64,000 nt of DNA from a virus, in the IMG/VR virus record IMGVR_UViG_3300040751_004835, positions 1 to 64,000 of that record. One strand, written 5' to 3'. Below are positions 5,506 through 54,546 of this stretch, piece after piece. The notes beneath the pieces were generated by a model. The model made no database searches and was not told where the DNA came from. It saw only the letters and a list, made by a program, of their open reading frames with translations. Every line of letters begins with the position of its first letter. Positions within the stretch are counted from its first letter, which is position 1. The translations under genes were made by a program, and so were the position numbers.

Positions 5506-6672
5506 ATGAACACGCCAGAAAACACAGATCAAATCCAAGAGGAATTTAACTGGAACATTCCTAACCGTAGAACAATCAACAGAGACATAGAGGTTTTTGA
5601 TGATTCAAAAGTTTATTGTAGGGAAGATTATGCACAGTCTCTCTACTACCAAATGGCTGAAAGCCTAAAGGGGGTAAACTCTTCTAAGGATTTGAAAACT
5701 GGAAATGCTTATGATAGCACCATTACCACTTTAACTGATAAGCATGCTATTGCACAAACTTATGAGGGACAATCGATTTACGTTGATTTAGTAAAAGAAA
5801 GAAAGGATGCAGATAAGCTTGGTATAACTGGAATTGACTTCGAGATTGGCTCTGAAATTCAGACCATTGTTAGAAATGTCAATGGAACTTATTATGGGTC
5901 CGTAATTGACTGCTTCATTGAAACAACTAAGCAAGAATTCTTTGAGCAAATTAAGAAGGAAACATTGGCTTACGAAGCAAGAATTGAGTCGATTAACAAT
6001 GGTGGTTATATTGTGGATGTGCAGGGAATTAAATGTTTCCTCCCAGGTTCGCTTGCAGCTGCTAATAAGATTACTAACTTTGAAGCTTATCTTGGCAAGA
6101 AAATCTACGTCATGATAGACGGGTATGTACAAAAGAAAGACATTTTTGTAGTTTCTTACAAGAAGTACCTGAACAAGATTATGGATGAAAAAATCCAAGA
6201 GCTTGATCTCACCAAAAAATATAAAGGGTACGTTACAGGAACCTCAAGCTTTGGAGTATTTGTTGAATGGGAAGACATCTACACAGGGCTAATACACAAA
6301 ACTGAATTTGACAACCAAAAGGTTGAAGGATTTACAGCAGGTGATGAGATAGAGTTTTATGTTAAGGAAGTTAAGGATGATAATAGGTTAACCCTAACTT
6401 TTGGCGAGCCTGTTGATAAGACCTTGAAAATTTATGATCTTAAAAAGGATCTTGAAGATGGATCTGCCCCAATTTCGAATGCTAAAGTAAAGCACAAAAG
6501 AAAGAACGGAGCTTTGGTTGAGTTACCAGAATTCGGTTTGATTGCAATGATTCCTCAGGGACGTTTAGGTAAAGATCATAAGGGACTTAAAACCGGAGAT
6601 CAAATCCTTGTAACTGTTTATGAGGTTGATTCGGTGATGGGAAAAATATTTGTAGAACCTCTCAATGAGTAA
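5506..6672 (+). CDS. Ribosomal protein S1-like multi-S1-domain RNA-binding protein
   Basis: Tandem S1 OB repeats: ARIESINNGGYIVDVQGIKCFLPGS, GYVTGTSSFGVFVEWEDIYTGLIHKTE, KVKHKRKNGALVEL..LIAMIP. Confidence 0.85.
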   Translation: MNTPENTDQIQEEFNWNIPNRRTINRDIEVFDDSKVYCREDYAQSLYYQMAESLKGVNSSKDLKTGNAYDSTITTLTDKHAIAQTYEGQSIYVDLVKERKDADKLGITGIDFEIGSEIQTIVRNVNGTYYGSVIDCFIETTKQEFFEQIKKETLAYEARIESINNGGYIVDVQGIKCFLPGSLAAANKITNFEAYLGKKIYVMIDGYVQKKDIFVVSYKKYLNKIMDEKIQELDLTKKYKGYVTGTSSFGVFVEWEDIYTGLIHKTEFDNQKVEGFTAGDEIEFYVKEVKDDNRLTLTFGEPVDKTLKIYDLKKDLEDGSAPISNAKVKHKRKNGALVELPEFGLIAMIPQGRLGKDHKGLKTGDQILVTVYEVDSVMGKIFVEPLNE

Positions 6673-23243: not shown

Positions 23244-25454
23244 ATGGCAAAAACTCCATTTATAAGGCCTCTTCAAGTACAGGGTGGAACTTTCTACGCA
23301 TTTTCTTCTGCTGCTGAAGATCTGTCTTTTACGTTTAACAATTCGGTTGATAAGTTCAAGTTTTCAAAATTTGCTCTTCTTAACATCCCAGATATTAATT
23401 CTGGTGATCCCTTGGGCAATAGCATTAAGCTAAATGCTCCAGATAGTGCCTTTTTGGATTATGCAACAAGTGCTGGAAACATTATTACTGGTAATGCCAA
23501 TACTGATTTCTCACAAAGTTTCCAGAGCTACTGTTTGAATGTTGAAACTACAATCCTAAGTGGGGATGATTACGATCCCAGCCTAAAGCAAAATATTTCC
23601 GAAAGGGTATTTTTCAAATGGCTTAAGGAAGTAGGTGCTATAAGATACCAACCAGCATCCTCGGATCAGGTAGTTGCTACTCTAGATCAAAATACTGTTA
23701 TTACTATAAATGACTTACCTTCCACCCAGAAAAGGTATGTTGAAGGTGACCCCTCCGGAGGAACTGGATCATACGGATTAGCAGGTTCAACATACAATAG
23801 GGTAGTTCAGTATATTGGTAATCTTGATATTGTAAACTCCGTCAAGAACAACAACAACACTTATTCAGAAGTGTATGTTCACGTTCCGACTAAAGACGGT
23901 AACACACCAACGGTACTTTTTAAAAATTTAGTTGATTCAAATTATTATCCAGATTTCCAATGGACGAATAACCCAGCGGATCCTTTGGATAAAGAATATT
24001 TGACTGGGAGATCTTATGATGAATTAAATCCGAGCGGGTTAACCAATTTAGCTATCTTCGATGATGATGTTTTAGGTTCGCCGAGTGTTACGTTCTCTGA
24101 TACCACTGACGGATCAACAGGAAGCGGTAACTGGTATGCCCCTAGGGATACAGCAAACACATATTTCACTGATTCAACATTTGTTGATCCAACTTCTCTT
24201 ATTATTTCAAAATCTGTTTCTGGAGCAACAGCTGGTGTTGGATTTCAGAGATATGTAAGAACCAAATTAGATTCAATTGGAATCGATTTCGACCCGGATT
24301 CTTATAAACAGATTGTTGATGATGCATCAATTTCAACATTAGAGGAGTTCAACTCTACTTCTATCTCAGAGGATTTCGAGTTTAATGCGGTGCTTATCTA
24401 TTATGATGTCTATGACCCAGCAGATCCTACAAATTCAGCCACAAACCTTTATGGGGTTTTATTCCTGGATGATGTACAGACAACTGGAACTAATGTTTAT
24501 AGCATACCTAGATTCCAAAAGTACAAACCAAATATAGTTACCAAGTTAAATGGTAACTCTTACGGTCTGAAGCTAAATATCAAATTTGATGTTGACATCG
24601 ATCAGACTGGGGTTGAGCAGGCAATCAATGATTATTCCCCATTCTCTCTAACGATGTTTATGGATGCTGTGAATGTTTTACAAGATGCTTCAAGCACTCT
24701 TAACAATAACGCAGCAAGTTATATTGATCTGGAAAGAAGAGTCTCTGAGATGGAAAACTTGCTACTTACACAAGACACCTCTACAACATTGGATAGGAGA
24801 ATTACAAGCTTGGAAAGCTCCTATGCAGCTAACCAGGCCCTTTTCAACAACACCCAATCTGTAATGGGATTGATTACTCAAAATTATGAGTTAATCCGGG
24901 CTATTATCAATAATGAGACTTCAGTTGAGATCTCATACAATTTGGATACTATCAAGCAAGGTTCTGGAGTTATAGTAAATCGATCGGTACCTAACCAGGT
25001 TATTATCGAAAACAATAACCAGGAGTTTAACATCGGACCTAATAATGGAACAGTCACCTTACAAAATACCTCTTCTAACAGAATAGGTCTTAAAACCTTT
25101 GGTAACTATGTAAAGCACGTAAATAATGGTACTCCAATAACTCTTACCTCTGATCTAACGATAAGAATTGATGACTCTGTCGTTAACTGGAAGAAAGGAC
25201 AGGCTATGAAATTCAGCTTTGGGGACCAAATTATTCCTGGTGACTTCACCATCAATTTCTTAACTAATGCGGTTGGAAAATATCCAATTAGCAATCCTAG
25301 CGGGGTAGCTTATTCTAACTTGATAATTTCCCTGGTAGATTCTGATATTTCTTCCTATGAGTATATGCCAGTTATTGAGATCATTTGTATCGATAACGAG
25401 AATCTGATCTTCCAGGCTGATATAGTAGGAAAAAGCTTAACAAATAATGGATAA
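23244..25454 (+). CDS. Virion structural protein
   Basis: 736 aa within the structural operon; internal coiled coil (LERRVSEMENLL..LDRRITSLE). Confidence 0.5.
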   Translation: MAKTPFIRPLQVQGGTFYAFSSAAEDLSFTFNNSVDKFKFSKFALLNIPDINSGDPLGNSIKLNAPDSAFLDYATSAGNIITGNANTDFSQSFQSYCLNVETTILSGDDYDPSLKQNISERVFFKWLKEVGAIRYQPASSDQVVATLDQNTVITINDLPSTQKRYVEGDPSGGTGSYGLAGSTYNRVVQYIGNLDIVNSVKNNNNTYSEVYVHVPTKDGNTPTVLFKNLVDSNYYPDFQWTNNPADPLDKEYLTGRSYDELNPSGLTNLAIFDDDVLGSPSVTFSDTTDGSTGSGNWYAPRDTANTYFTDSTFVDPTSLIISKSVSGATAGVGFQRYVRTKLDSIGIDFDPDSYKQIVDDASISTLEEFNSTSISEDFEFNAVLIYYDVYDPADPTNSATNLYGVLFLDDVQTTGTNVYSIPRFQKYKPNIVTKLNGNSYGLKLNIKFDVDIDQTGVEQAINDYSPFSLTMFMDAVNVLQDASSTLNNNAASYIDLERRVSEMENLLLTQDTSTTLDRRITSLESSYAANQALFNNTQSVMGLITQNYELIRAIINNETSVEISYNLDTIKQGSGVIVNRSVPNQVIIENNNQEFNIGPNNGTVTLQNTSSNRIGLKTFGNYVKHVNNGTPITLTSDLTIRIDDSVVNWKKGQAMKFSFGDQIIPGDFTINFLTNAVGKYPISNPSGVAYSNLIISLVDSDISSYEYMPVIEIICIDNENLIFQADIVGKSLTNNG

Positions 25455-36121: not shown

Positions 36122-37705
36122 ATGGCAGATTTTAACACAAAATACATATTACCGGGAGATGACAAGGATACCATCATCAATAAGATAAATCACAACTTTT
36201 ATCAAGTATTTTTCAATGGTGTTGGTGAAAGGGGTCCTGTTGGCTACGTTGGTGCTACGGGTATTAGAGGTCAAGCTGGGAGAGATGGTGAAGCAGGTGC
36301 AACTGGCGAAAGAGCTGCTGATTGGTTTTTCTCCTCTACCGAACCAAGTGATTCTGAATCTCAAAATGGTGATATTTGGATTAACATAGGGGTTACTGGA
36401 GGCCAGCAGGTTTACGTTTATACCTCAGGATCTTGGGTCAATACTGGACAAACACTTCTTTCTTCCGGTGTATTCTCTACAATAACTGGTGTTTCCGGTC
36501 CTGGTAATTCCACTTCAAATAATGCCATTTACATTAATGGAAGTCAGGGAGATAAAACTTTTGTTTTATCAGATTCGGTTGGTGCAACATCGTCTATGAA
36601 CCCTAACCTTTCTAAGGTAATAGTTTCAACAGATACCTCTCAAACTTCTGATTTTCCTATAGTTGGTTTTGCAAAGACTTTTTTAACTCAGACTCCTGGT
36701 GGAATAGTTTCTATGAAGTGGTCCCAAACAGGAAGCTCTTATGACCATAAATGGAACTTTCCCGGAGAAACTAGAATCCAAAGTGGACTTTCTTCCACTT
36801 ATTCTGCCACGGGAGGAACGATGACACTTTCGGCTCCGAATCAGAATTTGAATGTTTCCTCTAGATCGACTGCTAGCTTTACTGCAGCAACGGGAGGTAC
36901 TGGTACTTTTTCTTTTTCAACTCCTGGAATTTTTAGTTTTTCCTCTAGTTATGCAAACTTATCTGCTTCATCTTTTGATGTAACTATAAGTAATCCTGGC
37001 TCAACTGGATATATTGCTGCTACTGTTTCTCCATATACTCCTTTGGCGTCTTTGTCTGGCTCAGGAAATGGTGTAAACATCACTGCAGCATCAGAAACTT
37101 CAGACGAATTGCTTCAGGTATTAAGTACGACGGGTAAGGACTTTATTAAATCTGAAAGGACAAATAGATTTTCCATCGGTGGAGCTAATGGAGCTACTGG
37201 TGCATATAAGGTCAAAGGTATAACTAATACCACCCAAAATCTCTTATCTGATGGAGTAGACTACTATGTAAATTGTGGAAATCCAACAAACGATGTTTGT
37301 GTCATTACTCCAGGTCCACTTTATTCAGGTAGTCCAAGTGCTAACGGAAAAGCTAACCGTGTCCTGCTGAATGTTGGTAGCAATTTTTCTTGGGCAGCGG
37401 GACTTTTAAATTCTGGTGAAAGCAGAACCTTCGATTTCTTTATGAATTCTTCAACATTTTCCTTTGGTGGAATAAGAGTGGTTAAATCCGGAATACCTGG
37501 TGTGGGCAAAGAATATATTAACGACAATACAGCAGGTGAAGATGGGTGTCAGCACATACGTTTAACTTTTTTCCCAGTAACACTCACTGCAAAATTCCAC
37601 TACGAGGCTTTTTCAGACGATCACTACGAGTGTGGCTGGGAAACTTATACCATAGCGGTAACGACAGCTGGTGGAGGCGGAGGCGGAGGCTTTTTAGGTC
37701 TCTAA
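36122..37705 (+). CDS. Collagen-repeat tail fibre protein (paralog 2)
   Basis: G-X-Y run GERGPVGYVGATGIRGQAGRDGEAGATGERAADWF; N-terminal ~200 aa similar to the preceding gene. Confidence 0.7.
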   Translation: MADFNTKYILPGDDKDTIINKINHNFYQVFFNGVGERGPVGYVGATGIRGQAGRDGEAGATGERAADWFFSSTEPSDSESQNGDIWINIGVTGGQQVYVYTSGSWVNTGQTLLSSGVFSTITGVSGPGNSTSNNAIYINGSQGDKTFVLSDSVGATSSMNPNLSKVIVSTDTSQTSDFPIVGFAKTFLTQTPGGIVSMKWSQTGSSYDHKWNFPGETRIQSGLSSTYSATGGTMTLSAPNQNLNVSSRSTASFTAATGGTGTFSFSTPGIFSFSSSYANLSASSFDVTISNPGSTGYIAATVSPYTPLASLSGSGNGVNITAASETSDELLQVLSTTGKDFIKSERTNRFSIGGANGATGAYKVKGITNTTQNLLSDGVDYYVNCGNPTNDVCVITPGPLYSGSPSANGKANRVLLNVGSNFSWAAGLLNSGESRTFDFFMNSSTFSFGGIRVVKSGIPGVGKEYINDNTAGEDGCQHIRLTFFPVTLTAKFHYEAFSDDHYECGWETYTIAVTTAGGGGGGGFLGL

Positions 37706-37747
37706 TAAGAAATTTTGTGATACATAAACTTAGATAAATATACAGTA

Positions 37748-37984
37748 ATGGAACTTACAAAGAAAGAGAAAAATAAAGCCAATTCATTGAAGGACCAGTT
37801 TTCCTCGGTTAGAGGTGAAATTGAATCAGTACAGGCTGAGATGGATCTGCTAACTCAGAAAGCTGGTACATTGATCAAGGAACTTGAAAATTTGAGGGAC
37901 CAAGAAGCACAGTTTATAACTGGACTTAAGAACAAATATGGTGAGGGAACACTCGATCCATTCAAACTAATCTATATGAAATGA
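37748..37984 (+). CDS. Small coiled-coil protein
   Basis: Heptad pattern ending LKNKYGEGTLD, a common small phage protein type next to fibre genes. Confidence 0.55.
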   Translation: MELTKKEKNKANSLKDQFSSVRGEIESVQAEMDLLTQKAGTLIKELENLRDQEAQFITGLKNKYGEGTLDPFKLIYMK

Positions 37985-38796
37985 CACCAATTGTTGGTAA
38001 AATATGGTCTTTAATTAACAGCAAGGTTGGACCTATAGTTGCTATAGTTGTCCTAGCTTTTTTGCTTTTAAGGCAGTGCAACGTTTCTCAAAATGCCAAA
38101 AGGGAGGCTGAAAGAAATATGAACAACCTTCTGGCAGAGCAGGATAGCGTAAGAGAAGTTACCTCAAAGCTTGGAAACGTTCTTGCGGAAAAATCTGCTT
38201 TCCAATTAAAATACAATGAACTTTCAGAGGAGCAAGAGGATCTGATTAAACAACTAGAATTAGCTAAAAATAAAAAGCCTGGAGTTGTTATTGAGACCCA
38301 AGTGGTTTATAGAGACACAACAATTATAGTACCTGTTGAAAATGAGATTGGCGATAGTTCTTCGACTTTGAAGTTTGCTTACAATCCAACTTTGCCAGGA
38401 AATAATAGATTAATGGTCAATGGCAAATTACCTTATACTACAAGTGATACCTTAATAAATGGGTTAGAAAGAACCTTGATTAACCCCGGTGTAGTTAATC
38501 TTACCATTGAGCAAAAGATAGATTTGGTAACTGGTTTATATAGAGATCCGAAAACAGATAGGCTATTTGTAAGAGCTTCCACTACCTTCCCAGGCATTTC
38601 GTTTAATGATATAAATGCTTTGGATATGGTCGATGACCCAGGTACACGAAAAGCACTGAGGGGAGCAAGAAAACCTTTTGGTATCGGTGTTAATGTAGGT
38701 TATGGTATGCTCCTTACAATGGATGGGTATCAAGCAGGGCCTATCATAGGAGTTGGCTTGCACTACTCACCAAAATTCCTGCAGTTTGGTAAATAA
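37981..38796 (+). CDS. Membrane-anchored coiled-coil protein, spanin-like
   Basis: N-terminal hydrophobic segment ending LLLRQC, a coiled coil, and C-terminal amphipathic beta strands GIGVNVGYG..GVGLHYS. Confidence 0.45.
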   Translation: MTPIVGKIWSLINSKVGPIVAIVVLAFLLLRQCNVSQNAKREAERNMNNLLAEQDSVREVTSKLGNVLAEKSAFQLKYNELSEEQEDLIKQLELAKNKKPGVVIETQVVYRDTTIIVPVENEIGDSSSTLKFAYNPTLPGNNRLMVNGKLPYTTSDTLINGLERTLINPGVVNLTIEQKIDLVTGLYRDPKTDRLFVRASTTFPGISFNDINALDMVDDPGTRKALRGARKPFGIGVNVGYGMLLTMDGYQAGPIIGVGLHYSPKFLQFGK

Positions 38797-38807
38797 AGAA
38801 AGATAAA

Positions 38808-41303
38808 ATGGCATTTTCAAGCACATCAAAATACGTTCAGCTTACTCCTTACTTGGTAATGGAGTATAGATATGCAGATCAACCAAACCCAGAGGCATAT
38901 TTTGTCAACACCGGATCTCCATCAATTGGTTTTAATAAGTTGATCAATGGTGTGCTGGAAGATGATAACGGACAGCCTTCTAACGATGTACAGATAATGA
39001 ACCTCGACGAGGATCAATCTGTAACACAAAATACCCGTAATAATAGCGTTGTACAAACTAACCAAAATACGTTTATAACTCTTGATCCAGGACTTGTAGT
39101 ACCTTACAATGATTTTAATTCAGATCTTACAGATACTGCAGATCTCCCTATTACATTTCCTTCTAATATTCAAGTGATTTATGACTCTGTAAGGTATCAC
39201 ATTCTTGCTGGATATAACCTAAATAATATTGATGGTCTTGTTCTTCAGATTCAGTATCTTGATGTAAACGGATCTCATGTAACATTTTCGCAGATTAAAT
39301 TATCGAAGGGTTCTTCCCAGACTTACACATTGAGTCCAAATCCTCTGACGATTGGGTCTAATATTTTCGACAAATATTACGAAGTTAAGATACCAAGTCT
39401 CGTTGACATGAACAACAAGTACGGTGCAGCTACAGCTTCAAATAAGTCAAAAACTTTAGCTGGATTAACTAGTAAGAGCGGTCGGGGATATCAAACAGCA
39501 GCTCCGATAAGGATTAAAGCCTACGAGATTTTAAGTACAACAACCACCAATGGCTATGACACCTATGGCACGAATCTTCTGGCAGCTCTTTCTCTTGAGT
39601 CTACTGACCCATTTAAGAATATAGGTGCCTATATTGCACCGTCTGACCAGGGTGACTACTTTGAGTATTTTGCTACTGATGATGGTGGATTTCCGGAAGA
39701 TTTCATCCTCTTCCAAAATTCTATTGGAAATAGTTACTACCTAAATCATACTATTGAAACCCTTGAGCAAGTTGGAGGGGCACTGCTAAATACATCTAAT
39801 TTTAGTAATATCCAAACCACTGCCTATGATGTTCCGAACCTTTTAAGGCCTATTGTTAGATACCCACAGGTTGCTTCTTCTTTTACCTTGAGATACACCA
39901 TGACTCTGGTTAATAACAAAGATCAATCAAGGCTTATCAGAATTGCAACCTACACTTCTACTGATGTGAGTAGATATGGTGCTGAAATTCAGCCATTGCA
40001 ACTTCAGGTTCTTCCTCAGCAGCAAAAGATTTACAACAAGGTGGCTGGTAGCACAAACATATCGGTTCCAAGCAGCGGAATAACACCCAGTCAGATTACA
40101 AAATTTGCAAATGTTTTTGTTGACAGGACCTTAGTAAACACCTCACTTACCAATCTGGTTGTAAATGGGAGTACCTTGAGAGAAGACACCTCTAACCAAA
40201 CTACGGCTAGTGCAGCAATTTCTTACGGGGTTGGTCAAGCATACATTACTATTTCTCCTTTTGATAACTATTATAAGTTTACATTTTTCCAAAAGGCAAA
40301 TGACGGGACTACTAAAAATATAGATCTTTCCTCTTCTGGCGAATATTCAATGGTATTTGTTGACAACCAGAATAAGAAGGTTAGTGCTCCATCAATAGCT
40401 GATAATAATATTGCTAAACCTGCAAAGGGGGAACTAGCCTTTAAAATAGATGAAACCCTATCAACGCAAATATTGCAGTTTACCAATAAGAAGTTTTATA
40501 TTTCTAATAGGCCTAGGGTTGAAGCAAACACAGGTAATGATGGAAACGCTTCTGCTTTGAGCAACTTAAGATCACAAGTACAGTCTAGAACAACCTCTTT
40601 TAATAGATCTGTATCTGATATTTCTGTTTCTTCTCAAAACAACCAAGCAAAGATTGGAACTGCTAACATTTCAGCTAAATCCTCCTCGGTTTTATATTGG
40701 GGAAATTGGATATTAGAAGACGAGACTGCTCCACAAGTAAGTGTTGATACTGATCTACAAACCGGAACTATTTCTTCTGGTGAGGCTACGATTGGAAATA
40801 TTCTAGATCTCTTCCCAACACAAACAACCGGTCAATCCTCTTGGCAAGCATACGGGTCAACCTCTGGTAACAATCAGGCAAATACTCCACAATCTGCAAC
40901 GACAACAACTGGTGGATCCCAAACGAGTAATTTAAGTCCTGCAGAAATAAGGAGTTCTATAGCATCCGATGTCCAAGGTAAGATAGAATTGGAATGGTCG
41001 ACCAACGATATACTCGCTTACTATTTGGATCCTTCTGGTGTTGGGTATAAGCTTTACGGAGGTATTAGTAAAGGTGTATTTTATCAAGCAGTAAGTGGAA
41101 TATTCGATAACACTGCACTTGGTATCCTCTATAATTACGGGAACACTGGATTTGGAACCACCAATGGTGGAGCTGCAGCAAGCAACAATTCCAGCAATAA
41201 TGCATCCGGAAACGATAGTGGAAGTAGTACTGCTTCTACAAGTGGAACCTCTGGGGGATCACAAGGGCCAAAGGGTACTTTACCATCATTTATAACCGTG
41301 TAA
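38808..41303 (+). CDS. Virion structural protein
   Basis: 831 aa with a low-complexity S/T/G C-terminus; context. Confidence 0.45.
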   Translation: MAFSSTSKYVQLTPYLVMEYRYADQPNPEAYFVNTGSPSIGFNKLINGVLEDDNGQPSNDVQIMNLDEDQSVTQNTRNNSVVQTNQNTFITLDPGLVVPYNDFNSDLTDTADLPITFPSNIQVIYDSVRYHILAGYNLNNIDGLVLQIQYLDVNGSHVTFSQIKLSKGSSQTYTLSPNPLTIGSNIFDKYYEVKIPSLVDMNNKYGAATASNKSKTLAGLTSKSGRGYQTAAPIRIKAYEILSTTTTNGYDTYGTNLLAALSLESTDPFKNIGAYIAPSDQGDYFEYFATDDGGFPEDFILFQNSIGNSYYLNHTIETLEQVGGALLNTSNFSNIQTTAYDVPNLLRPIVRYPQVASSFTLRYTMTLVNNKDQSRLIRIATYTSTDVSRYGAEIQPLQLQVLPQQQKIYNKVAGSTNISVPSSGITPSQITKFANVFVDRTLVNTSLTNLVVNGSTLREDTSNQTTASAAISYGVGQAYITISPFDNYYKFTFFQKANDGTTKNIDLSSSGEYSMVFVDNQNKKVSAPSIADNNIAKPAKGELAFKIDETLSTQILQFTNKKFYISNRPRVEANTGNDGNASALSNLRSQVQSRTTSFNRSVSDISVSSQNNQAKIGTANISAKSSSVLYWGNWILEDETAPQVSVDTDLQTGTISSGEATIGNILDLFPTQTTGQSSWQAYGSTSGNNQANTPQSATTTTGGSQTSNLSPAEIRSSIASDVQGKIELEWSTNDILAYYLDPSGVGYKLYGGISKGVFYQAVSGIFDNTALGILYNYGNTGFGTTNGGAAASNNSSNNASGNDSGSSTASTSGTSGGSQGPKGTLPSFITV

Positions 41304-42257: not shown

Positions 42258-42929
42258 TTGAAAACACTAGTCGGAATAGATTTTTCCCTCAATTCACCAG
42301 CATTTTGTATTTTAAGAGAAAACCAATTTACTTGGGGTTCCCTAACTAGGAGCGACCGGACTGCGGAATCCCTTAAGAAAAATACTAAAAAACCTTACTA
42401 TGTTTTATCTGAAGACAAAACGGAAGACTATGTTCTTATGTTTATGTCAAAGGATAAAATGCCAGAAGACTACTCGGAAAGGGAAAGAATAAAGATAGAT
42501 TATTTCCAGGAGCTCGTTGATGAATTTTGGTCTGAAATAGAAAATATCTGTGCAGGTGATGACATCATTGTAGCTATGGAAGGACTAAGTTTTGCCTCTA
42601 ATGGTAATGCTTTGATTGATATCTCTATGGCCACAGCTCTACTCCGTAAGAAGATAGTTGACCACACAGGTAGCGATAATTTCTACGTTTATTCGCCAAC
42701 TTCTATAAAGAAGTTCGCTTTTAAGGGAAATGCAAAAAAGCACGAACTTTATAATTCACTTCTTGATCGCAAATTTCCAGAAACTAATTTAGGGTCTTTC
42801 ACTAGTATTTTAGAAGAAAATAAGGACGAATGGATAACTCCCTCCGGTAATGTAAACAAGCCATTGGATGATATTATAGATTCGACCTGGATATGTTTAT
42901 TTTTATATGACTCAATCAAAGAAGGTTAA
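42258..42929 (+). CDS. RuvC-like Holliday junction resolvase
   Basis: VGIDFSLNSPA, VAMEGLSF, PTSIKKFA..GNAKK and DDIIDS catalytic motifs. Confidence 0.8.
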   Translation: MKTLVGIDFSLNSPAFCILRENQFTWGSLTRSDRTAESLKKNTKKPYYVLSEDKTEDYVLMFMSKDKMPEDYSERERIKIDYFQELVDEFWSEIENICAGDDIIVAMEGLSFASNGNALIDISMATALLRKKIVDHTGSDNFYVYSPTSIKKFAFKGNAKKHELYNSLLDRKFPETNLGSFTSILEENKDEWITPSGNVNKPLDDIIDSTWICLFLYDSIKEG

Positions 42930-43638
42930 CATTCTTATTCCTCTCGGAGGTGCTGGAAGGAGATTCAGCGACGCTGGATACTTACAGATAAAGCCATTTA
43001 TAGACGTCAGCGGAGAAACGATGATTAGGTCTGTGATCAAAAACCTAAATCATCAAGATGCACACTTTGTATTTGTGATAAACGAGGAATATATTTCTCC
43101 CACAGAATTTGAATCCCATATATCAGACATGGGAATATCGTTTGAGGTTTTCTCAACCCCAACCCTAACACAAGGACCAGCTTCAACAGTTCTCTTTGCA
43201 AGTCAGTCGATTGATAACGATTTACCCCTTATTGTTGTTAACTGTGATCAGATTATTCTGGATTTCAATCTGGACTTCATTTTAGATTTTGCAAGAACTA
43301 CGGGGTGTGATGGATTGTTGGGATGTTTTCTTTCCTCTTCTAAAAAGAACAGCTATGTTAAGTTAGATCCAAACGGAGAGGTCTGTGATGTGAAGGAAAA
43401 AATTGTGATTTCCAACATTGCTACTAACGGGTTACATTTTTGGAAGCACGGCAAATACTTTGTAGAAAGTGCGGAACAAATGATAGCAGCAAACGATCGA
43501 TATAATAATGAGTTCTACGTTGCACCTACCTACAATTACATGATAAAAAGTGGAAAGAAAATATTGCCCTTCTTCTATAACCTTCACTTTCCGATAGGTA
43601 CCCCAGAGGACCTGGATAAATTTTTAAAGTTGGTTTAG
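42907..43638 (+). CDS. Sugar-phosphate nucleotidyltransferase (GT-A/NTP_transferase fold)
   Basis: ILIPLGGAGRRF..GY..IKPFIDV, TQGPAST, VVNCDQ, VKEK..ISNIATNG, NNEFYVAPTYN and IGTPEDL. Confidence 0.85.
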   Translation: MTQSKKVNILIPLGGAGRRFSDAGYLQIKPFIDVSGETMIRSVIKNLNHQDAHFVFVINEEYISPTEFESHISDMGISFEVFSTPTLTQGPASTVLFASQSIDNDLPLIVVNCDQIILDFNLDFILDFARTTGCDGLLGCFLSSSKKNSYVKLDPNGEVCDVKEKIVISNIATNGLHFWKHGKYFVESAEQMIAANDRYNNEFYVAPTYNYMIKSGKKILPFFYNLHFPIGTPEDLDKFLKLV

Positions 43639-43641
43639 TTT

Positions 43642-43965
43642 ATGGAAGTTTATAGAATTGAAGATATGGAGGGAGGTTGGTATGCTGGAGATTTCTCCCC
43701 AGTAGCTTACCAAACTAGTGATTTTGAGATTTGTTATAAAAAGCACTTCAAGGGCGAAGAGTGGCCAAAACATTACCATAAGGAAGCGGATGAAATAAAC
43801 TTCCTCAGATCGGGTAAAATGATTATACAAGGACGGGAATTAAATTCGGGGGATGTGTTTATTCTAAGGAAAGATGAAATTGCTGACCCCGTATTTTTGG
43901 AAGACTGTGAAGTTTTTATAGTTAAGACCCCCTCGGTTCCTGGTGATAAATTTGTAATTGAATGA
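43642..43965 (+). CDS. Cupin-fold protein
   Basis: HYHKEADEINFLRSGKMII..LNSGDVFIL cupin metal-binding motif. Confidence 0.75.
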   Translation: MEVYRIEDMEGGWYAGDFSPVAYQTSDFEICYKKHFKGEEWPKHYHKEADEINFLRSGKMIIQGRELNSGDVFILRKDEIADPVFLEDCEVFIVKTPSVPGDKFVIE

Positions 43966-45197
43966 TAAGCATTTTTAAAAATAAGGCGGATTTCGATACA
44001 TCCCAGTATTTTATAGTCAAATACTTTTTGGAAGCTAAAACTTCTTTGAGAGAAGCTTCCTGGAATTTGGCTATAGGTCAAAGTATAGGTAACCCGAATA
44101 ATAGGAGCGAGTGGGAAACCGATGAGATGTTTGAAAATCACAGTTGCTTTATTCTTGCAAACGAAGAAGATCTTGCCCAACTAAAAGAGGGCGAGATCGA
44201 GATAGCTTTTCCTCTAGCAAATCTTAATTTGGAAGAAGACGGGATCTCTCAAATACTTTGTCATATAGCTGGTGGTCAGGTTGACATAGAGGAAGTAAGA
44301 CAATGTCATGTCTTGGACATTTCTTTGCCTGAGGATGCTGAGAGATCATTTTCTTTAAATCCGGCCTATGGTATTGATGGATGGAGGAAATTTAATGGTA
44401 TAAACCAAAGACCTTTCTTAGGTGGAATAGTTAAACCTAAGGTTGGTATGTCTCCCTCTGTTCTTCTCGAAGCTGTGAAGGAAATGGTTTATGGTGGTGT
44501 GAATTTCATCAAAGAGGATGAATTACTTGCTAACCCTTCCCACTGCCCTCTTGAAGAAAGAGTACCTTTGATTTCATCCTGGTTAAAAGAGAATGCGCCC
44601 AACGTAATTTATTGCTTTTGCATAAATGGTGATAGTCCATATGCCTTAGAAAGAGCAAAATTTGTAGCAGATAACGGTGGGAACGGAATACACATAAACG
44701 TGTGGAGTGGACTGGGAATTTATCGTGCTATTAGAAAGCAAAATCCAAATCTCTGGATACATTTCCAAAAGAGCGGAGATAAATTCTTTACTGACCGTAG
44801 GGCGCCAAACCACATTTACTGGCCGGTTTTGTGCAAGATCGCTGGATGGTCTGGAGTCGATTCGATCCATGCAGGAATGATCGGCGGTTATATGAGCCAA
44901 GATGAGCAGGAAATAAAAGATACCTTACAAACCCTTTGGAATTATAACATTGTTCCTGCTTTAAGCTGTGGTATGCATCCAGGGCTTGTTGAGTATATTA
45001 ATACAACAATAGGAAGCTTCGATTGGATGGCAAACGTTGGTGGTGCTATGCATGGACACCCTCAGGGGACTAGGACTGGTGCCTTGGCAATGAGACAGTC
45101 TATCGATGGAGATCACGATCAACCTGAATATAAAGCAGCAATAGAAAAATGGGGTAACAAATGTTTCTCTGAAGATCTAGACTATCGAATATTCTGA
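43962..45197 (+). CDS. RuBisCO-like protein (form IV RLP)
   Basis: GGIVKPKVG (K175/K177), GGVNFIKEDE (K201/D203/E204), GVDSIHAG (H327), PALSCGMHPG (S379) and GGAMHGHPQG. 411 aa. Confidence 0.92.
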   Translation: MISIFKNKADFDTSQYFIVKYFLEAKTSLREASWNLAIGQSIGNPNNRSEWETDEMFENHSCFILANEEDLAQLKEGEIEIAFPLANLNLEEDGISQILCHIAGGQVDIEEVRQCHVLDISLPEDAERSFSLNPAYGIDGWRKFNGINQRPFLGGIVKPKVGMSPSVLLEAVKEMVYGGVNFIKEDELLANPSHCPLEERVPLISSWLKENAPNVIYCFCINGDSPYALERAKFVADNGGNGIHINVWSGLGIYRAIRKQNPNLWIHFQKSGDKFFTDRRAPNHIYWPVLCKIAGWSGVDSIHAGMIGGYMSQDEQEIKDTLQTLWNYNIVPALSCGMHPGLVEYINTTIGSFDWMANVGGAMHGHPQGTRTGALAMRQSIDGDHDQPEYKAAIEKWGNKCFSEDLDYRIF

Positions 45198-45198: not shown

Positions 45199-45633
45199 AT
45201 GAAGCTAATATCACATAGAGGTAATTTAAAAGGTCCAAATCCGGATAGAGAAAATACGATTGACTATATACAGGAAGCTCTTGATCTGGGGTATGATGTG
45301 GAGATCGACGTTTGGATCTCCGGAGCATCAATCTATTTGGGACACGATTCTCCAGAAACCAAAATACATCTTGCTTGGCTTTTAGAAAGAGGGGATAAGT
45401 TATGGATACATTGTAAAAACATATCAGCTATGGTTTATCTGAAGGAATATGGAGATCTCAATGTTTTTTGGCACGAAAACGACAAGGTAACCCTTACCTC
45501 TAAATCTTTCATTTGGGCTTTTCCTGGGATGCAACCAATTAGCAAAAGCATTGCGGTTTTACCTGAGATGTACGAGGAGAAAGTTGATAGTTGTTGTGGT
45601 GTATGTTCTGATTATATTGTGAATTATTCATGA
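45199..45633 (+). CDS. Minimal GDPD/PLC-like phosphodiesterase-fold protein
   Basis: ISHRGN..ENT..ALDLGYDVEIDVW..LGHD..WIHCKN..GVCSD. Confidence 0.8.
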   Translation: MKLISHRGNLKGPNPDRENTIDYIQEALDLGYDVEIDVWISGASIYLGHDSPETKIHLAWLLERGDKLWIHCKNISAMVYLKEYGDLNVFWHENDKVTLTSKSFIWAFPGMQPISKSIAVLPEMYEEKVDSCCGVCSDYIVNYS

Positions 45634-46412
45634 GGATTGCCTTACTACTTCCTGGTCAAATAAGGGAAGCTCAGGATTCCTTCCCGTTTATCAAGTCAGA
45701 AATTTTAGATAAGTACGATACTGATGTTTTCATATCAACCTGGAATCCTTCCGGTGAAATCAACCAGTCTCTTCATGCTGAAACTAAGGACCTAGTGGAT
45801 TCCTTAACTATTGACGATCTTATAAAGATGTATTCACCTAAGCATTTGAAGACTGACGATTTTGGTTCTGCTGCGATTAAAAGGTTTATTGACAGAGCTT
45901 GGTCGTATGAAAAGTTTGGTCCACAGACTGGTGAGATCAACCCAGTGTCTGTTTTTTTGATGTGGTATAAAATTAGACAAGCTTTCTCCCTGATGGAAGA
46001 ATATGAAATCCAGGTAGGTCAAAAGTACGATTGCGTCATCAAGGGAAGAATGGATATTAAGATCCACAATGAATTGAATTTAGGACGGGACTTGGATAAG
46101 ATCAACGTCCCTCCTGGGTTTGATTGGAAGGGTGGAGTAAATGATATATTGGCTTGGGGTGGCAGAGAATCAATGGAACATTACTGCAAAATGTTCGACT
46201 ATCTGGAGGAGTATATTATATCCGATATTTACTTCCACCCTGAAACTTTACTAAGATATCACATAGAAAGTTCTGAATTTGGTTTATCTAGGCCGTTTGT
46301 CAAAGTTTCACTCCGAGGTAAGAATGTTTGGGAGACCGAAGTATCAGAAAACGAAATAGATGAAAAAAGTTTTGGATATATAATGTCTAGGGGAAACATT
46401 TGGGACACTTAG
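45630..46412 (+). CDS. Putative glycosyltransferase-like protein
   Basis: MRIALLLPGQIRE..DVFISTW..MWYKI..YDCVIKGRMD..NDILAWG..HPETLL, a pattern typical of GT-like genes in polysaccharide loci. Confidence 0.6.
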   Translation: MRIALLLPGQIREAQDSFPFIKSEILDKYDTDVFISTWNPSGEINQSLHAETKDLVDSLTIDDLIKMYSPKHLKTDDFGSAAIKRFIDRAWSYEKFGPQTGEINPVSVFLMWYKIRQAFSLMEEYEIQVGQKYDCVIKGRMDIKIHNELNLGRDLDKINVPPGFDWKGGVNDILAWGGRESMEHYCKMFDYLEEYIISDIYFHPETLLRYHIESSEFGLSRPFVKVSLRGKNVWETEVSENEIDEKSFGYIMSRGNIWDT

Positions 46413-52632: not shown

Positions 52633-54546
52633 ATGGCGGGAATAAATCACTTATACGACATTTATAATAAGAAGGGATCTGATTTTGTTAATCAGCTTTT
52701 TAATCGTTATGTAACAATTAACGAAAAGATGGACGGTTCAGCCTTCTCTTTTGAGAGGGATAAGGAATCTGGTAATTTCCGTTTTTATAGGAGAGACCAA
52801 AGAAATCCTATAACTCTAGTAGATAGGACGCTCATGAAATATTATGAGAAGCCAATCCAGTATATCGAATCTCTTCCACCAAACATACTTGAAAAAATCC
52901 CCAGAGGATGGAGATTTGGACTTGAGTATTTTTCAAACACCAAACCCGTAGAGATTTCATATGATAGATTACCAAAGAATAATCTGATTCTCTCCTATAT
53001 CCACAAAATGGGTACTGGCGGTAAGATAGAAAGTACTATACAGGATAAGGAAGAATTGGATAATTGGGCAGATCTGATTGGAGTTGAAAGACCGCCAATC
53101 GTTTTCCAGGGGGTGTTGGACGAAGATCAGAAATCTGAGCTTATGGAGTTTTTGAACACGCCGTTCAAAGATCTTGTTGAAAGGTTCAAAACACAATCTT
53201 TTGTTAGGTTTGTTATTAAGACCTTAAACCCGGATTTAACTAAAACTGCTCTTAACGACGACCTAGATAAGGATGTCGAGGGTATAGTTTTTAGATTTGG
53301 AGAGCTCGATGGAGATAGTGATACTATATTAGCCAAAATGGTGGATCCTATATTCACTGAAATAGCTAAGCAAAAGTTTGCTGACAAAAAGAGTAAAAAG
53401 CCTTCGGATTTTCTTGGAATCACATTGCTTGATGTGATGAATTTCATTTTGGAAAAAGATCTTTCTGAATTTGAAGTTGAAGGTGAGTCTGAAGACGAGA
53501 GATACATTTCCTTTATGGGAGACGTATTTGTTAAATTCCTGGATGAATATGAGGAGAAGTATAAGGGTACTGATTTTGAGGAACCTGATTACTTGAAACG
53601 GGATGAATTCAGACTGAATAAGGAAAAGATTAAAGACAGAAGAGTTCTTAAATATGTTGAGAAGGATGACTCATTTGAGTCTTTATTTAAACTCATCCTT
53701 AATTCCTTTAGAAAGATAAAAACTAGAGCTGGAGGTATCATCACCTCTGGGATGAAAGATCAGATGAATCTTTTAATCAAGGATATCAAGGATTATATTA
53801 AAAAACCAGAGAAGAAAGTAAACGAATCAAGGTTTATTAGCTTTGGTGAATTCAGAAAGGAAAACTCTCCTTCGGTTGAATATCTACAGGAGGAAGACGA
53901 TTCAGATTCAAGTGATGATCCATTCTTCTCATACCAAGAATTTATTAGCAAACTAGAAACCATTGATAACGAGGAGATCCCGGCTGAGGTAGAAATGCTC
54001 AAGGAGAAAGATACGGAGGAAAGAAAACCAGTTAATGTCATAATGGGTAGATTCCAGCCTTTCCACCAGGGACATCTTAAGATGGCGAAGGATCTCATGG
54101 AGAAAAACGATCTCCCATCTTTTGTTGTTGTGGTTTATCCTGGACACAACAAGTCTGGAAAATCCCCATTTGATGAGGAGGCAATCAAAAGATATATGGA
54201 TGCAATAGTTGCTAATAACGAGGAGATTGAAGGATATGTCCTTGCTACAAGAGGTCTTCTTGGGTCTGCTATTGCAAGACTAATAGACATGGGATATGAC
54301 CCTAAGTTAATTGGTGCAGGCCCCGATCGAATAGACGACTACACTAAGCAGATAGACTATGTTAAGATGTCTGATATTAAGGACAAAATAAGTGATGACC
54401 TTGGTATTGTAGAAACACCAAGGGTAACGAGCGGTACTGAGGTTAGACAAGCTATGAAGGACCAAGACTTTTCTAAGTTCAAAAAGATGGTTCCAAAAGA
54501 GGTATCTAATCTTTACAACGACCTTATTACAAGCGTCAGGGACTGA
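52633..54546 (+). CDS. Fusion: RNA-ligase-like adenylyltransferase domain + HIGH-type cytidylyltransferase/NMNAT-like domain
   Basis: N-terminal EKMDGS (motif I), GLEYF (III), EGIVFR (IV) and AKMV (V). C-terminal GRFQPFHQGH, GAGPDR and SGTEVR. Confidence 0.75.
   Translation: MAGINHLYDIYNKKGSDFVNQLFNRYVTINEKMDGSAFSFERDKESGNFRFYRRDQRNPITLVDRTLMKYYEKPIQYIESLPPNILEKIPRGWRFGLEYFSNTKPVEISYDRLPKNNLILSYIHKMGTGGKIESTIQDKEELDNWADLIGVERPPIVFQGVLDEDQKSELMEFLNTPFKDLVERFKTQSFVRFVIKTLNPDLTKTALNDDLDKDVEGIVFRFGELDGDSDTILAKMVDPIFTEIAKQKFADKKSKKPSDFLGITLLDVMNFILEKDLSEFEVEGESEDERYISFMGDVFVKFLDEYEEKYKGTDFEEPDYLKRDEFRLNKEKIKDRRVLKYVEKDDSFESLFKLILNSFRKIKTRAGGIITSGMKDQMNLLIKDIKDYIKKPEKKVNESRFISFGEFRKENSPSVEYLQEEDDSDSSDDPFFSYQEFISKLETIDNEEIPAEVEMLKEKDTEERKPVNVIMGRFQPFHQGHLKMAKDLMEKNDLPSFVVVVYPGHNKSGKSPFDEEAIKRYMDAIVANNEEIEGYVLATRGLLGSAIARLIDMGYDPKLIGAGPDRIDDYTKQIDYVKMSDIKDKISDDLGIVETPRVTSGTEVRQAMKDQDFSKFKKMVPKEVSNLYNDLITSVRD

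What the first reader, a model, noticed from the sequence alone, without database searches (positions are those of the whole stretch)
43962..45197. Unusual active-site signature of the phage RLP: not a carboxylase
By-eye alignment to form I numbering. Retained: K175/K177 (VKPK), the carbamylated-Lys/Mg motif K201-x-D203-E204 (IKEDE), H327 (IHAG), S379 and G403/G404. Replaced: E60 (AIGQSIG vs AAESSTG), N123 (AGGQV), H294/R295 (IHFQKS vs HIHRA) and loop-6 K334 (GMIGGYM). Metal-dependent enolisation machinery is therefore kept while the CO2-fixation residues are lost. It should not be annotated as a carbon-fixation auxiliary gene, and this residue set may define a separate RLP clade.
Basis: partly seen in the sequence, partly recalled or inferred. 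Interest (0 to 1): 0.75.

Follow-up and report, generated by a model that had tools for sequence, protein, structure and literature searches.

The report
Phage RuBisCO-like enzyme, not a carboxylase
A large estuarine phage carries an intact relative of the CO2-fixing enzyme RuBisCO that has lost the CO2-handling residues; it always travels with a sugar-activating enzyme, so it most likely reshapes a sugar phosphate for an unusual surface sugar rather than fixing carbon.

Summary
The ORF at 43962-45197 (+, 411 aa) is real. It has a full RuBisCO large-subunit fold (AlphaFold pLDDT 95; TM 0.86 to form III).

- Kept: K175, K177, K201, D203, E204, H327, S379, G381, G403, G404.
- Replaced: E60→G, T65→N, W66→P, N123→G, H294→Q, R295→K, H298→D, K334→Y, G380→C.

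The core of this 20-site signature is fixed through a well-supported clade (SH-aLRT 99) down to 28% identity, so the protein is not a carboxylase.

Two points qualify the reading. The clade was already reported (Jaffe et al., PMC6389311). It is also not phage-specific: SAR11, Legionella, Nonomuraea, Azospirillum, CPR bacteria and DPANN archaea carry it.

The gene is locked to an NTP-transferase (122 of 127 loci). A small metal cupin, a miniature GDPD-fold protein and DUF7796 usually accompany it, and natural fusions link the parts. The flanking genes are glycan-synthesis genes.

Best reading: a Mg/carbamate-dependent enolising isomerase or epimerase that feeds a nucleotide-activated sugar pathway. 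The substrate is unknown.

This scan has reached the same reading on many other genomes.

The parts
43962..45197 (+). RuBisCO-like protein (RLP), 411 aa, non-carboxylating 'form IV-like' clade
   Evidence: ORF. Pfam PF00016 at 1.3e-32. AlphaFold pLDDT 95, pTM 0.92. Foldseek TM 0.86 to 2d69/2cwx. Clade tree. dN/dS 0.06 against L003.
44511..44522 (+). K184-E185-D186-E187: equivalents of the carbamylated Lys201 and the Mg ligands D203 and E204
   Evidence: Alignments. K184, D186 and E187 are invariant in the clade alignment A2. Codons checked.
44433..44441 (+). K158-P159-K160: equivalents of K175 and K177
   Evidence: invariant K158, P159, K160; codons.
44076..44096 (+). N-domain loop G39-Q40-S41-I-G-N44-P45, replacing E60...T65-W66
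   Evidence: G39, Q40 and S41 are invariant; N44 and P45 are at least 90% conserved.
44274..44285 (+). G105-Q106-V-D108, replacing the N123 region (AGN to GGQxD)
   Evidence: codons.
44766..44780 (+). Q269-K270-S-G-D273, replacing H294-R295...H298
   Evidence: Q269 and G272 are invariant.
44868..44891 (+). H303 (= H327) and loop 6 G-M-I-G-G-Y310, with Tyr in place of K334
   Evidence: Y310 is invariant.
44964..45044 (+). S335-C336-G337 (= S379, G380→C, G381) and G360-G361 (= G403, G404): the phosphate-binding loops
   Evidence: codons.
42907..43638 (+). Sugar-phosphate nucleotidyltransferase (NTP_transferase), 243 aa
   Evidence: Pfam PF00483 at 1.8e-10. PDB 4evw at 1.8e-14. Next to the RLP in 77 of 80 viral loci and in 44 of the 47 cellular loci that carry the RLP family. 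Fused to the RLP in the P0122 cluster of 128 members.
43642..43965 (+). Small metal-type cupin, 107 aa (H44-x-H46-x4-E51 motif). Its stop codon overlaps the RLP start (ATGA).
   Evidence: Found in 74 of 80 viral loci. 12 NTP-transferase-cupin fusions. Profile hits to quercetin dioxygenase motif 1, a small 'mannose-6-phosphate isomerase' (7zvm) and KdgF. Junction read.
45199..45633 (+). Miniature GDPD-fold (PLC-like phosphodiesterase) protein, 144 aa
   Evidence: The HRG..ENT..EID..HD motif matches 1v8e weakly. AlphaFold of the homologous domain has pLDDT 92-98. VIA Z 10.3 to GDPD 1o1z over 137 aligned residues, and 19 of the top 21 hits are GDPD or GDPD-like phospholipase D. Found in 61 of 80 viral loci. 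Fused to the RLP in P0173. A full-length GDPD replaces it in DPANN loci.
45630..46412 (+). DUF7796 protein, 260 aa; possible nucleotide-sugar transferase. Its start overlaps the stop of the preceding gene (ATGA).
   Evidence: The Atlas's nearest clusters are viral and carry DUF7796. Found in 33 of 80 viral loci. Fused to the mini-GDPD in L055. The weak glycosyltransferase-like Rossmann matches (Z 6-8) come from a low-confidence model.

Best explanation
The gene encodes a functional RuBisCO-like protein that cannot carboxylate. It belongs to the 'form IV-like' clade found in phages and in many cells.

It keeps three things. The first is the carbamylated-Lys/Asp/Glu Mg2+ site. The second is K175 and K177. 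The third is the glycine loops that hold a phosphate. It can therefore still bind a phosphorylated 2-keto (or 3-keto) sugar and pull off an alpha-proton to make a metal-bound enediolate.

It has lost the residues that add and hydrate CO2 (E60, N123, H294, K334). They are replaced by a fixed Gly/Gln, Gly/Gln/Asp, Gln and Tyr set. The enediolate is therefore reprotonated, which gives an isomerisation or epimerisation, rather than being carboxylated.

The product, or the substrate, is handled by the adjacent nucleotidyltransferase, helped by a small metal cupin (isomerase or tautomerase type) and a miniature GDPD-fold protein. The result is a nucleotide-activated unusual sugar or polyol phosphate. 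Transferases then install it on a glycan: DUF7796 here; GT2, GT61, LicD or PMT-like enzymes elsewhere.

Shown:
- the fold and the residue pattern
- clade membership and purifying selection
- gene linkage, natural fusions and glycan-gene neighbourhoods

Inferred:
- the enolisation chemistry and the order of steps
- the substrate, the nucleotide used and the final acceptor (host envelope, virion or DNA)
For: - **Fold and residues.** Established.
- **No named family.** It reaches no curated equivalog cut-off: rubisco_III 164.5 against 497; MtnW 118.7 against 409 and 89.2 against 514; OiaX 123.3 against 700.
- **Clade.** SH-aLRT 99 in two trees.
- **Selection.** dN/dS 0.06 against L003. Against more distant phages, synonymous sites are saturated while pN is 0.08-0.18.
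- **Linkage in 80 viral loci.** NTP-transferase 77, cupin 74, mini-GDPD 61, DUF7796 33. The flanking replication genes recur in only 15-16. The cassette therefore moves as a unit between unrelated phage backbones.
- **Natural fusions.** RLP-NTP-transferase (a cluster of 128 members, 667-671 aa). Mini-GDPD-RLP (P0173). Twelve NTP-transferase-cupin fusions and one mini-GDPD-DUF7796 fusion. HAD (beta-phosphoglucomutase family)-NTP-transferase.
- **Cellular loci.** The NTP-transferase lies beside the RLP in 44 of the 47 loci carrying the RLP family.
- **Neighbours in cells.** LicD in Legionella and GT2 in Nonomuraea. GT2 in Beckwithbacteria, GT61 in SAR11, a PMT-like GT-C enzyme in Planctomycetales and an ABC exporter.
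- **Neighbours in phages.** NAD-dependent epimerase/dehydratase, DegT aminotransferase, UDP-GlcNAc 2-epimerase, FkbM and TylF methyltransferases, GT2.
- **Operon structure.** ATGA start/stop overlaps at two junctions.
Against: - No activity has been measured for any member of the clade. The substrate cannot be named from sequence.
- The distal phosphate site is only half kept (K/R270 and H303 yes; H298 is Asp). Both a mono- and a bisphosphate substrate remain open.
- The role of a GDPD-fold protein in a biosynthetic route is unexplained.
- In this phage the cassette sits in the replication module, between a RuvC-like resolvase and gp32. That position would also suit a DNA-modification pathway.
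- The DUF7796 domain model is of low confidence.
- The RNA evidence is short contigs in RNA libraries only.
- Gene neighbourhood is guilt by association.
Confidence: 0.6

Rival explanations
1. The chemistry is the same, but the target differs. In phages the activated sugar is used on phage DNA (hypermodification) or on virion proteins, not on the host envelope. Alternatively the RLP acts on the NDP-linked sugar after nucleotidyl transfer rather than on the free sugar phosphate.
For: - In this phage group the cassette lies between a RuvC-like resolvase and gp32, primase and helicase (15-16 of 80 loci).
- The changes in the N-domain loop and loop 6 (E60G, T65N, W66P, K334Y) could open room for a nucleotide. 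This is inference.
Against: - In most viral loci the flanks are glycan genes, not DNA genes.
- The cellular homologues sit beside GT2, GT61, LicD, PMT-like enzymes and an ABC exporter.
- No DNA-glycosyltransferase or base-modifying gene was identified in the cassette.
Confidence: 0.15
2. The RLP uses the enediolate as a carbon nucleophile, as RuBisCO does, but on an electrophile other than CO2. The chemistry would be aldol-like or transcarboxylase-like and would build a branched or chain-extended sugar phosphate.
For: - The Mg/carbamate site and K175/K177 are fully kept.
- New invariant polar residues surround the site: Q40, S41, Q106, D108, H244, N246, Q269, Y310.
- From my own knowledge: RLPs of D-apiose catabolism do decarboxylation and transcarboxylation (Carter et al. 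2018, listed in the references of PMC6389311).
Against: - There is no direct evidence.
- No second-substrate-supplying enzyme is conserved in the cassette.
- The OiaX model scores only 123 bits against a cut-off of 700.
Confidence: 0.1
3. It is a methionine-salvage type RLP, either a DK-MTP-1-P enolase or a 5-methylthioribulose-1-P isomerase. It would serve as an auxiliary gene for SAM and sulfur recycling during infection.
For: - These are the best-known RLP functions.
- An RLP paired with a cupin recalls the R. rubrum MTA-isoprenoid shunt (my own knowledge, not tested here).
- The MtnW models give E-values of 2e-34 and 2e-25.
Against: - The MtnW scores lie far below cut-off: 118.7 against 409 and 89.2 against 514.
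- The position of the MtnW general base (N123→Lys, from my own knowledge) is Gly here.
- No methionine-salvage gene (MtnA, MtnB, MtnK, MtnX or MtnD type) appeared among the neighbour families that were annotated in the 131 loci. Many neighbour families gave no Pfam match.
- The conserved partner is an NTP-transferase.
- The clade is separate from the MtnW-like clade in the tree.
Confidence: 0.05
4. It is a true RuBP carboxylase/oxygenase with an unconventional residue set, that is, a carbon-fixation auxiliary gene.
For: - It is annotated as 'ribulose-bisphosphate carboxylase large chain' by JGI.
- Viral rbcL genes are treated as carbon-fixation genes in the recent literature (PMC12615777).
Against: - E60, N123, H294 and K334 are all replaced by residues that cannot do their jobs.
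- The rubisco_III model scores 164 bits against a cut-off of 497.
- The carriers are heterotrophs and DPANN/CPR organisms, and the neighbours are glycan genes. No phosphoribulokinase or small-subunit gene appeared among the neighbours that were annotated.
Confidence: 0.02

Closest known systems
Phage and Beckwithbacteria 'form IV-related' RuBisCO-like proteins of Jaffe, Castelle, Dupont & Banfield (Mol Biol Evol 36:435; PMC6389311)
   Same: - Both are found on large myovirus-type contigs of IMG/VR.
- Both are highly divergent from other RLPs, with key residues unlike known form IV proteins.
- Both group with a Beckwithbacteria sequence. Here the Beckwithbacteria locus L092 falls inside the clade.
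- This is almost certainly the same clade.
   Different: - The paper left the function open and suggested transfer between phage and CPR bacteria.
- Here the exact 20-site signature is given.
- The clade is shown in cultured bacteria and in a complete SAR11 chromosome, with cellular branches basal.
- It is tied to an NTP-transferase, cupin and GDPD cassette by linkage and fusions.
Form III RuBisCO (P. horikoshii 2cwx/2d69, T. kodakarensis 3a12/3a13, 8dht)
   Same: - These are the best sequence and structure matches: phmmer 8.6e-36, profile 1e-64 to 2e-65, TM 0.86.
- The fold is the same, as are the Mg/carbamate triad, K175/K177, H327, S379 and the glycine phosphate loops.
   Different: - It lacks E60, T65, W66, N123, H294, H298, K334 and G380.
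- The TIGR03326 model scores 164.5 bits against a cut-off of 497.
- It forms a separate clade.
DK-MTP-1-P enolase MtnW/YkrW (form IV; G. kaustophilus 2oek, B. subtilis 2zvi)
   Same: - Both are non-carboxylating RLPs that use the Mg/carbamate site to enolise a keto-sugar 1-phosphate.
- TM is 0.82.
   Different: - It scores below both MtnW cut-offs.
- The N123 position is Gly, not the catalytic Lys.
- K177 is kept.
- The genomic context is nucleotide-sugar genes, not methionine salvage.
3-oxo-isoapionate-4-phosphate decarboxylase OiaX and related acid-sugar RLPs (Burkholderia RLP 3nwr)
   Same: - 3nwr is the second-best PDB sequence hit (1.2e-33).
- Both are RLPs acting on phosphorylated keto sugars outside methionine salvage.
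   Different: - The OiaX model scores 123 bits against a cut-off of 700.
- The OiaX-like clade (P0187 group, signature ETFNKSKDEHRWHKFSSGGG) is separate.
- Those enzymes are catabolic. This one sits in biosynthetic clusters.
Form IV-GOS clade of Tabita et al. 2007 (from my own knowledge) and the unclassified GOS RuBisCO homologues (PMC1821046)
   Same: - These are marine-metagenome RuBisCO homologues that clustered with no known form.
- The habitat fits the estuarine and marine occurrence here.
   Different: Identity with this clade could not be tested. The Tabita papers are not held and no GOS sequences were available.

Membership tests
RuBisCO large-subunit superfamily | N-terminal alpha/beta domain plus C-terminal (beta/alpha)8 barrel; match to PF00016 above the gathering score | tested here: met
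   PF00016 scores 113.7 bits against a cut-off of 30.1. AlphaFold pLDDT 95. Foldseek TM 0.80-0.86 to forms I-IV across the full length.
Bona fide RuBisCO (forms I-III) | The complete catalytic set, including E60, N123, H294 and K334 | tested here: not met
   The set reads G39, G105, Q269 and Y310. TIGR03326 scores 164.5 against 497; NF003252 scores 142.9 against 438.
Bona fide RuBisCO (forms I-III) | Mg2+/carbamate site K201-D203-E204 together with K175 and K177 | tested here: met
   K184, D186, E187, K158 and K160 are present and invariant in the clade.
RuBisCO-like proteins (form IV in the broad sense) | RuBisCO fold with substitutions at carboxylase active-site residues | tested here: met
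   Nine of the 20 tracked sites are replaced. The fold is confirmed.
MtnW/YkrW DK-MTP-1-P enolase | Score above the NCBIfam equivalog cut-off | tested here: not met
   NF007095 scores 118.7 against 409. TIGR03332 scores 89.2 against 513.6.
MtnW/YkrW DK-MTP-1-P enolase | Methionine-salvage gene neighbourhood | tested here: not met
   No methionine-salvage gene appeared among the neighbour families annotated in the 131 loci. The partners found are an NTP-transferase, a cupin, a GDPD-fold protein and glycan genes.
OiaX 3-oxo-isoapionate-4-phosphate decarboxylase | Score above the NCBIfam equivalog cut-off | tested here: not met
   NF042437 scores 123.3 against 700.
Phage/Beckwithbacteria form IV-like clade (Jaffe et al.) | Encoded on myovirus-type IMG/VR contigs | tested here: met
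   121 IMG/VR stretches encode relatives, on contigs up to 518 kb. The window carries a baseplate wedge protein, a tail fibre, gp32, a primase and a helicase.
Phage/Beckwithbacteria form IV-like clade (Jaffe et al.) | Groups with Beckwithbacteria and lies apart from all other RLP clades | tested here: met
   L092 (Candidatus Beckwithbacteria) falls inside the clade. The clade is separated from all other sampled forms at SH-aLRT 99.
Phage/Beckwithbacteria form IV-like clade (Jaffe et al.) | Direct sequence identity with the published set | not testable with these tools
R. rubrum-type (DeepYkr) 5-methylthioribulose-1-P isomerase | Clade membership with the characterised enzyme | not tested
   No named reference sequence was available. 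None of the other clades in the tree is close to this one.

The most novel reading that the evidence does not exclude
This clade would be the first RuBisCO-family enzyme with an anabolic role. Its retained Mg-carbamate enediolate chemistry would make a so far undescribed keto, epimeric or branched sugar (or polyol) phosphate. That product would be nucleotide-activated by the fused or adjacent transferase. It would then be installed on surface glycans of SAR11, Legionella, CPR bacteria and DPANN archaea. Large aquatic phages would carry the cassette to re-decorate the infected cell, the virion or their DNA.
Probability: 0.45. Interest if true: 0.8.

Novelty: new variant of a known kind. Interest (0 to 1): 0.6.

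Why it matters
**Annotation.** Homologues of this gene are auto-named 'ribulose-bisphosphate carboxylase large chain'. Viral rbcL hits are counted as carbon-fixation auxiliary genes in the ecological literature. For this abundant aquatic clade that reading is wrong: 2330 proteins were found.

**Enzymology.** Functions are known for only a few RLP clades, and those lie in salvage or catabolism. A clade that is fused to a nucleotidyltransferase inside glycan clusters across viruses, bacteria and archaea points to a new biosynthetic use of the RuBisCO scaffold. Cultured carriers (Azospirillum oleiclasticum, Nonomuraea rosea, Legionella species) give tractable systems in which to test it.

Tried and rejected
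**Searches that found nothing**
- tblastn and megablast against 50,697 deposited phage genomes: no match.
- PHROGs has no family for the RLP.
- PADLOC: none of the five proteins matches a defence family.
- Papers combining RuBisCO-like protein with nucleotidyltransferase and cupin, or Beckwithbacteria with RuBisCO and phage after 2019: none.
- A search combining RuBisCO-like protein with glycan terms listed no paper holding the term 'RuBisCO-like protein'.
- NCBIfam and Pfam gave nothing for several conserved unknown neighbours: two Legionella proteins of about 330 aa, the 434- and 403-aa proteins of L017, and the 198-aa viral family.

**Tools and sources not available**
The contexts of P0134, P0122 and other database-only members could therefore not be read.
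- The Tabita reviews that define form IV-GOS are not held.
- AlphaFold coordinates are not exposed to scripts. Active-site geometry could not be measured, and the residue mapping rests on sequence and profile alignments.

**Weak or corrected results**
- An apparent 633-aa 'RLP fusion' in L053 was an artefact of my own ORF extension. It is the RLP plus a separate FkbM methyltransferase gene.
- In the AlphaFold model of the mini-GDPD-DUF7796 fusion, only the GDPD half is confident. Foldseek gave no hit at E ≤ 0.001; VIA-align then gave the GDPD fold.
- Metatranscriptome contigs of 151-428 nt cover parts of the cupin, RLP, mini-GDPD and DUF7796 genes in four RNA libraries. DNA carry-over cannot be excluded, so this is not counted as proof of expression.
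Full report
**What is there**

The window is part of a 91,374-bp IMG/VR virus record that CheckV rates about 33% complete. It is a T4-like myovirus: it carries a baseplate wedge protein, tail fibres, gp32, a primase, a helicase and a RuvC-like resolvase. G+C is about 38%.

The ORF at 43962..45197 (+) encodes 411 aa. It matches Pfam RuBisCO_large at 1.3e-32, and the N-terminal domain weakly. Its best solved relatives are form III RuBisCO of P. horikoshii (2cwx, 8.6e-36) and a Burkholderia RLP (3nwr, 1.2e-33).

An AlphaFold model built from a 77-sequence alignment has mean pLDDT 95 and pTM 0.92. It superposes over its whole length on form III enzymes (TM 0.86) and on RLPs 3nwr, 1tel, 2qyg and 2oem (TM 0.80-0.85).

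**Residue mapping**

Three independent alignments agree: pairwise HMMER to 2cwx, a 24-sequence clade profile against CABP-bound form III chains, and a 116-sequence MAFFT alignment.

In form I numbering, the kept residues are:
- K175 = K158 and K177 = K160
- K201 = K184, D203 = D186 and E204 = E187
- H327 = H303
- S379 = S335 and G381 = G337
- G403 = G360 and G404 = G361

The replaced residues are:
- E60 → G39, T65 → N44 and W66 → P45
- N123 → G105
- H294 → Q269, R295 → K270 and H298 → D273
- K334 → Y310
- G380 → C336

R295 → K is conservative, because the clade has K or R at that position. Codon coordinates were verified.

**A clade, not an oddity**

A word-indexed search found 2330 relatives. 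The top 120 are all 75-87% identical and 400-417 aa long. An exhaustive HMMER scan of 1.8 billion representatives gave a graded series from 456 bits down to about 150 bits (28-55% identity). Below that the other RuBisCO forms begin.

In 35 of the 36 clade rows the core of the 20-site signature, G-N-P-G-K-K-K-D-E-Q-[KR]-x-H-Y-x-S-C-G-G-G, is fixed with only rare exceptions. The earliest branch, P0134, is intermediate, and no outsider has the pattern.

The clade alignment shows further invariant polar residues that other forms lack: Q40, S41, H244, N246, Q269 and Y310. Q106 (by the consensus) and D108 (at least 90%) are nearly invariant. The active site is remodelled, not decayed.

The clade is separated from every other sampled form at SH-aLRT 99 (112 rows, LG+G4 quick search, four fragmentary or fused rows left out).

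No curated equivalog cut-off is reached: rubisco_III 164.5 against 497, MtnW 118.7 against 409, OiaX 123.3 against 700.

Selection is strongly purifying. dN/dS is 0.06 against the 97%-identical L003. Against more distant phages, synonymous sites are saturated while pN is only 0.08-0.18.

**The cassette**

Eighty IMG/VR loci with RLPs 51-99% identical were fetched. Among these 80 loci:

| Window gene | Loci that have it |
|---|---|
| NTP-transferase | 77 |
| 107-aa cupin | 74 |
| 144-aa protein | 61 |
| 260-aa protein | 33 |
| Flanking RuvC, gp32, primase genes | 15-16 |

The genes therefore travel as a cassette between unrelated phage backbones.

Natural fusions tie the parts together:
- RLP-NTP-transferase: P0122, 667 aa, a cluster of 128 members that includes Tara Oceans sequences
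- the 144-aa protein fused to the RLP: P0173
- twelve NTP-transferase-cupin fusions and one fusion of the 144-aa and 260-aa proteins
- a HAD domain of the beta-phosphoglucomutase family fused to the NTP-transferase

In the window the genes are packed as an operon. ATGA overlaps join the cupin to the RLP and the 144-aa gene to the 260-aa gene.

**The partners**

- **NTP-transferase.** It is a sugar-1-phosphate type enzyme (PF00483). Its only solved relative is 4evw, an NDP-sugar pyrophosphorylase (1.8e-14).
- **Cupin.** It has an invariant H-x-H-x4-E metal motif. Its profile matches quercetin dioxygenase motif 1, a 113-aa 'mannose-6-phosphate isomerase' (7zvm) and KdgF.
- **144-aa protein.** It carries the GDPD motifs. 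The homologous domain models at pLDDT 92-98 and gives VIA Z 10.3 (rmsd 3.3 Å, 137 aligned residues) to GDPD 1o1z. Nineteen of the 21 best hits are GDPDs or related phospholipases D. DPANN loci that lack it have a full-length GDPD instead.
- **260-aa protein.** It is DUF7796, a mostly viral family. Its model is poor and gives only weak glycosyltransferase-like matches.

**Not phage-specific**

A scan of one genome per prokaryotic species returned 51 loci. They include:
- a complete Candidatus Pelagibacter chromosome (53% identity) and many SAR11 single-cell genomes
- Legionella nautarum, L. drozanskii and L. maceachernii (34%)
- Nonomuraea rosea (39%) and Azospirillum oleiclasticum (37%; WP_180286819.1)
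- Beckwithbacteria and Saccharibacteria
- Woese-, Pace-, Nano- and Micrarchaeota

The NTP-transferase lies beside the RLP in 44 of the 47 loci that carry the RLP family. The annotated neighbours include:
- LicD in Legionella and GT2 in Nonomuraea
- GT2 in Beckwithbacteria, GT61 in SAR11 and a PMT-like GT-C enzyme in Planctomycetales
- an ABC exporter

In the SAR11 locus L104 the housekeeping gene lepA lies upstream, so the cassette there is chromosomal.

In phages the neighbours are NAD-dependent epimerases/dehydratases (found at 37 loci, phage and cellular together), DegT aminotransferases, UDP-GlcNAc 2-epimerases, FkbM and TylF methyltransferases and GT2.

In a tree rooted on other forms (105 rows after removing sequences at least 92% identical), the branching order is:
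1. an Actinomycetota MAG
2. a group containing Elusimicrobia, Nonomuraea, Turneriella, Francisellaceae and Legionella
3. DPANN archaea with SAR11
4. Planctomycetales
5. CPR bacteria

The viral sequences form the crown. Starred branches force at least five switches between the viral and cellular labels.

Two caveats apply. Some 'cellular' bins are mis-binned phage: L081, labelled 'Saprospirales', carries gp32 and primase genes 94-97% identical to the window's. The tree tool also flagged several long branches.

**How it most likely works**

Established knowledge of RuBisCO and RLPs:
- The carbamate on K201, with D203 and E204, holds Mg2+.
- Mg2+ binds the C2 carbonyl and C3 hydroxyl and supports proton abstraction to form an enediolate.
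- E60, N123 and K334 position and polarise CO2.
- H294 acts in hydration and cleavage.
- The G381, G403 and G404 loops bind a phosphate.

Here the first and last groups are intact and the CO2 group is gone. The inference is that the enzyme binds a phosphorylated keto-sugar, forms the enediolate and reprotonates it, giving an isomerase or epimerase. Less likely, it uses another electrophile.

The fusions and the universal adjacency say that the NTP-transferase handles its product or its substrate. The beta-phosphoglucomutase-type HAD fusions fit a conversion from a sugar 6-phosphate or 5-phosphate to a 1-phosphate before activation. The neighbourhoods say the activated unit ends up in a glycan.

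The substrate, the nucleotide, the role of the GDPD-fold protein and the acceptor in phages are unknown.

**What is known**

Jaffe et al. (PMC6389311) reported about 80 phage 'form IV-related' sequences, some on Myoviridae contigs. The sequences had divergent key residues and grouped with Beckwithbacteria. Function was left 'unclear'.

The 2007 GOS paper had already seen RuBisCO homologues that fit no known form. No paper in the library links an RLP to a nucleotidyltransferase and a cupin.

Viral rbcL is still being read as a carbon-fixation gene. I cannot say whether those genes belong to this clade.

Earlier reports of this scan reached the same cassette reading on many other genomes. I saw them only after my own analysis was done.

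**Habitat and expression**

The stretch occurs in estuary, marine, seawater and oyster metagenomes from several studies. Short contigs from four metatranscriptomic libraries cover parts of the cupin, RLP, mini-GDPD and DUF7796 genes at 90-100% identity. This is suggestive only.

**Verdict**

That clade is already published and is not phage-specific.

The real interest is the conserved coupling to nucleotide activation. It makes an untested biosynthetic role for the RuBisCO fold directly testable.

Noticed in passing
L081 (CALAZP010000190.1, 64,200 bp, 'uncultured Saprospirales bacterium' MAG): This MAG contig is a close relative of the window's phage. RuvC, gp32 and primase are 90-97% identical and the RLP is 83% identical. 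It is either phage DNA binned into a Bacteroidota MAG or a hint at the host.
   Followed up: partly
L094, L104, L115 (Planctomycetales, SAR11, Woesearchaeota): Two different NTP-transferase genes lie at these loci. They flank the RLP directly in L094 and L104, and one lies further off in L115. A mini or full-length GDPD is next to them. This suggests two nucleotidyl-transfer steps or two donors.
   Followed up: no
L022:2124-3338: A 404-aa protein links to the DUF7796 family in clustering. By eye, its C-terminal part looks like a methyltransferase. FkbM or TylF methyltransferase genes sit directly after the RLP in more than 30 viral loci, so the product may be O-methylated.
   Followed up: partly
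L056, L071, L073 (IMG/VR contigs labelled GVMAG): Contigs labelled as giant-virus MAGs carry the same cassette, with NTP-transferase-cupin fusions. The Atlas also lists Nucleocytoviricota among relatives of DUF7796. Whether these are true giant viruses or mis-labelled jumbo phages was not checked.
   Followed up: no
window 52633-54546 (+): The C-terminal third of this 637-aa protein matches phage cytidylyltransferase families (phrog_3041, phrog_395). The N-terminal 450 aa have no PHROG match.
   Followed up: no
window 2643-8059, 23244-25454, 36122-41303: Several large ORFs (935, 388, 464, 736, 527 and 831 aa) in the structural region have no PHROG match at 1e-5. Much of the virion module is unlike that of reference phages.
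   Followed up: no
window 42907-42929: The NTP-transferase start overlaps the end of the RuvC-like gene by 23 bases. The cassette is thus welded into the replication-gene transcription unit in this phage lineage.
   Followed up: no
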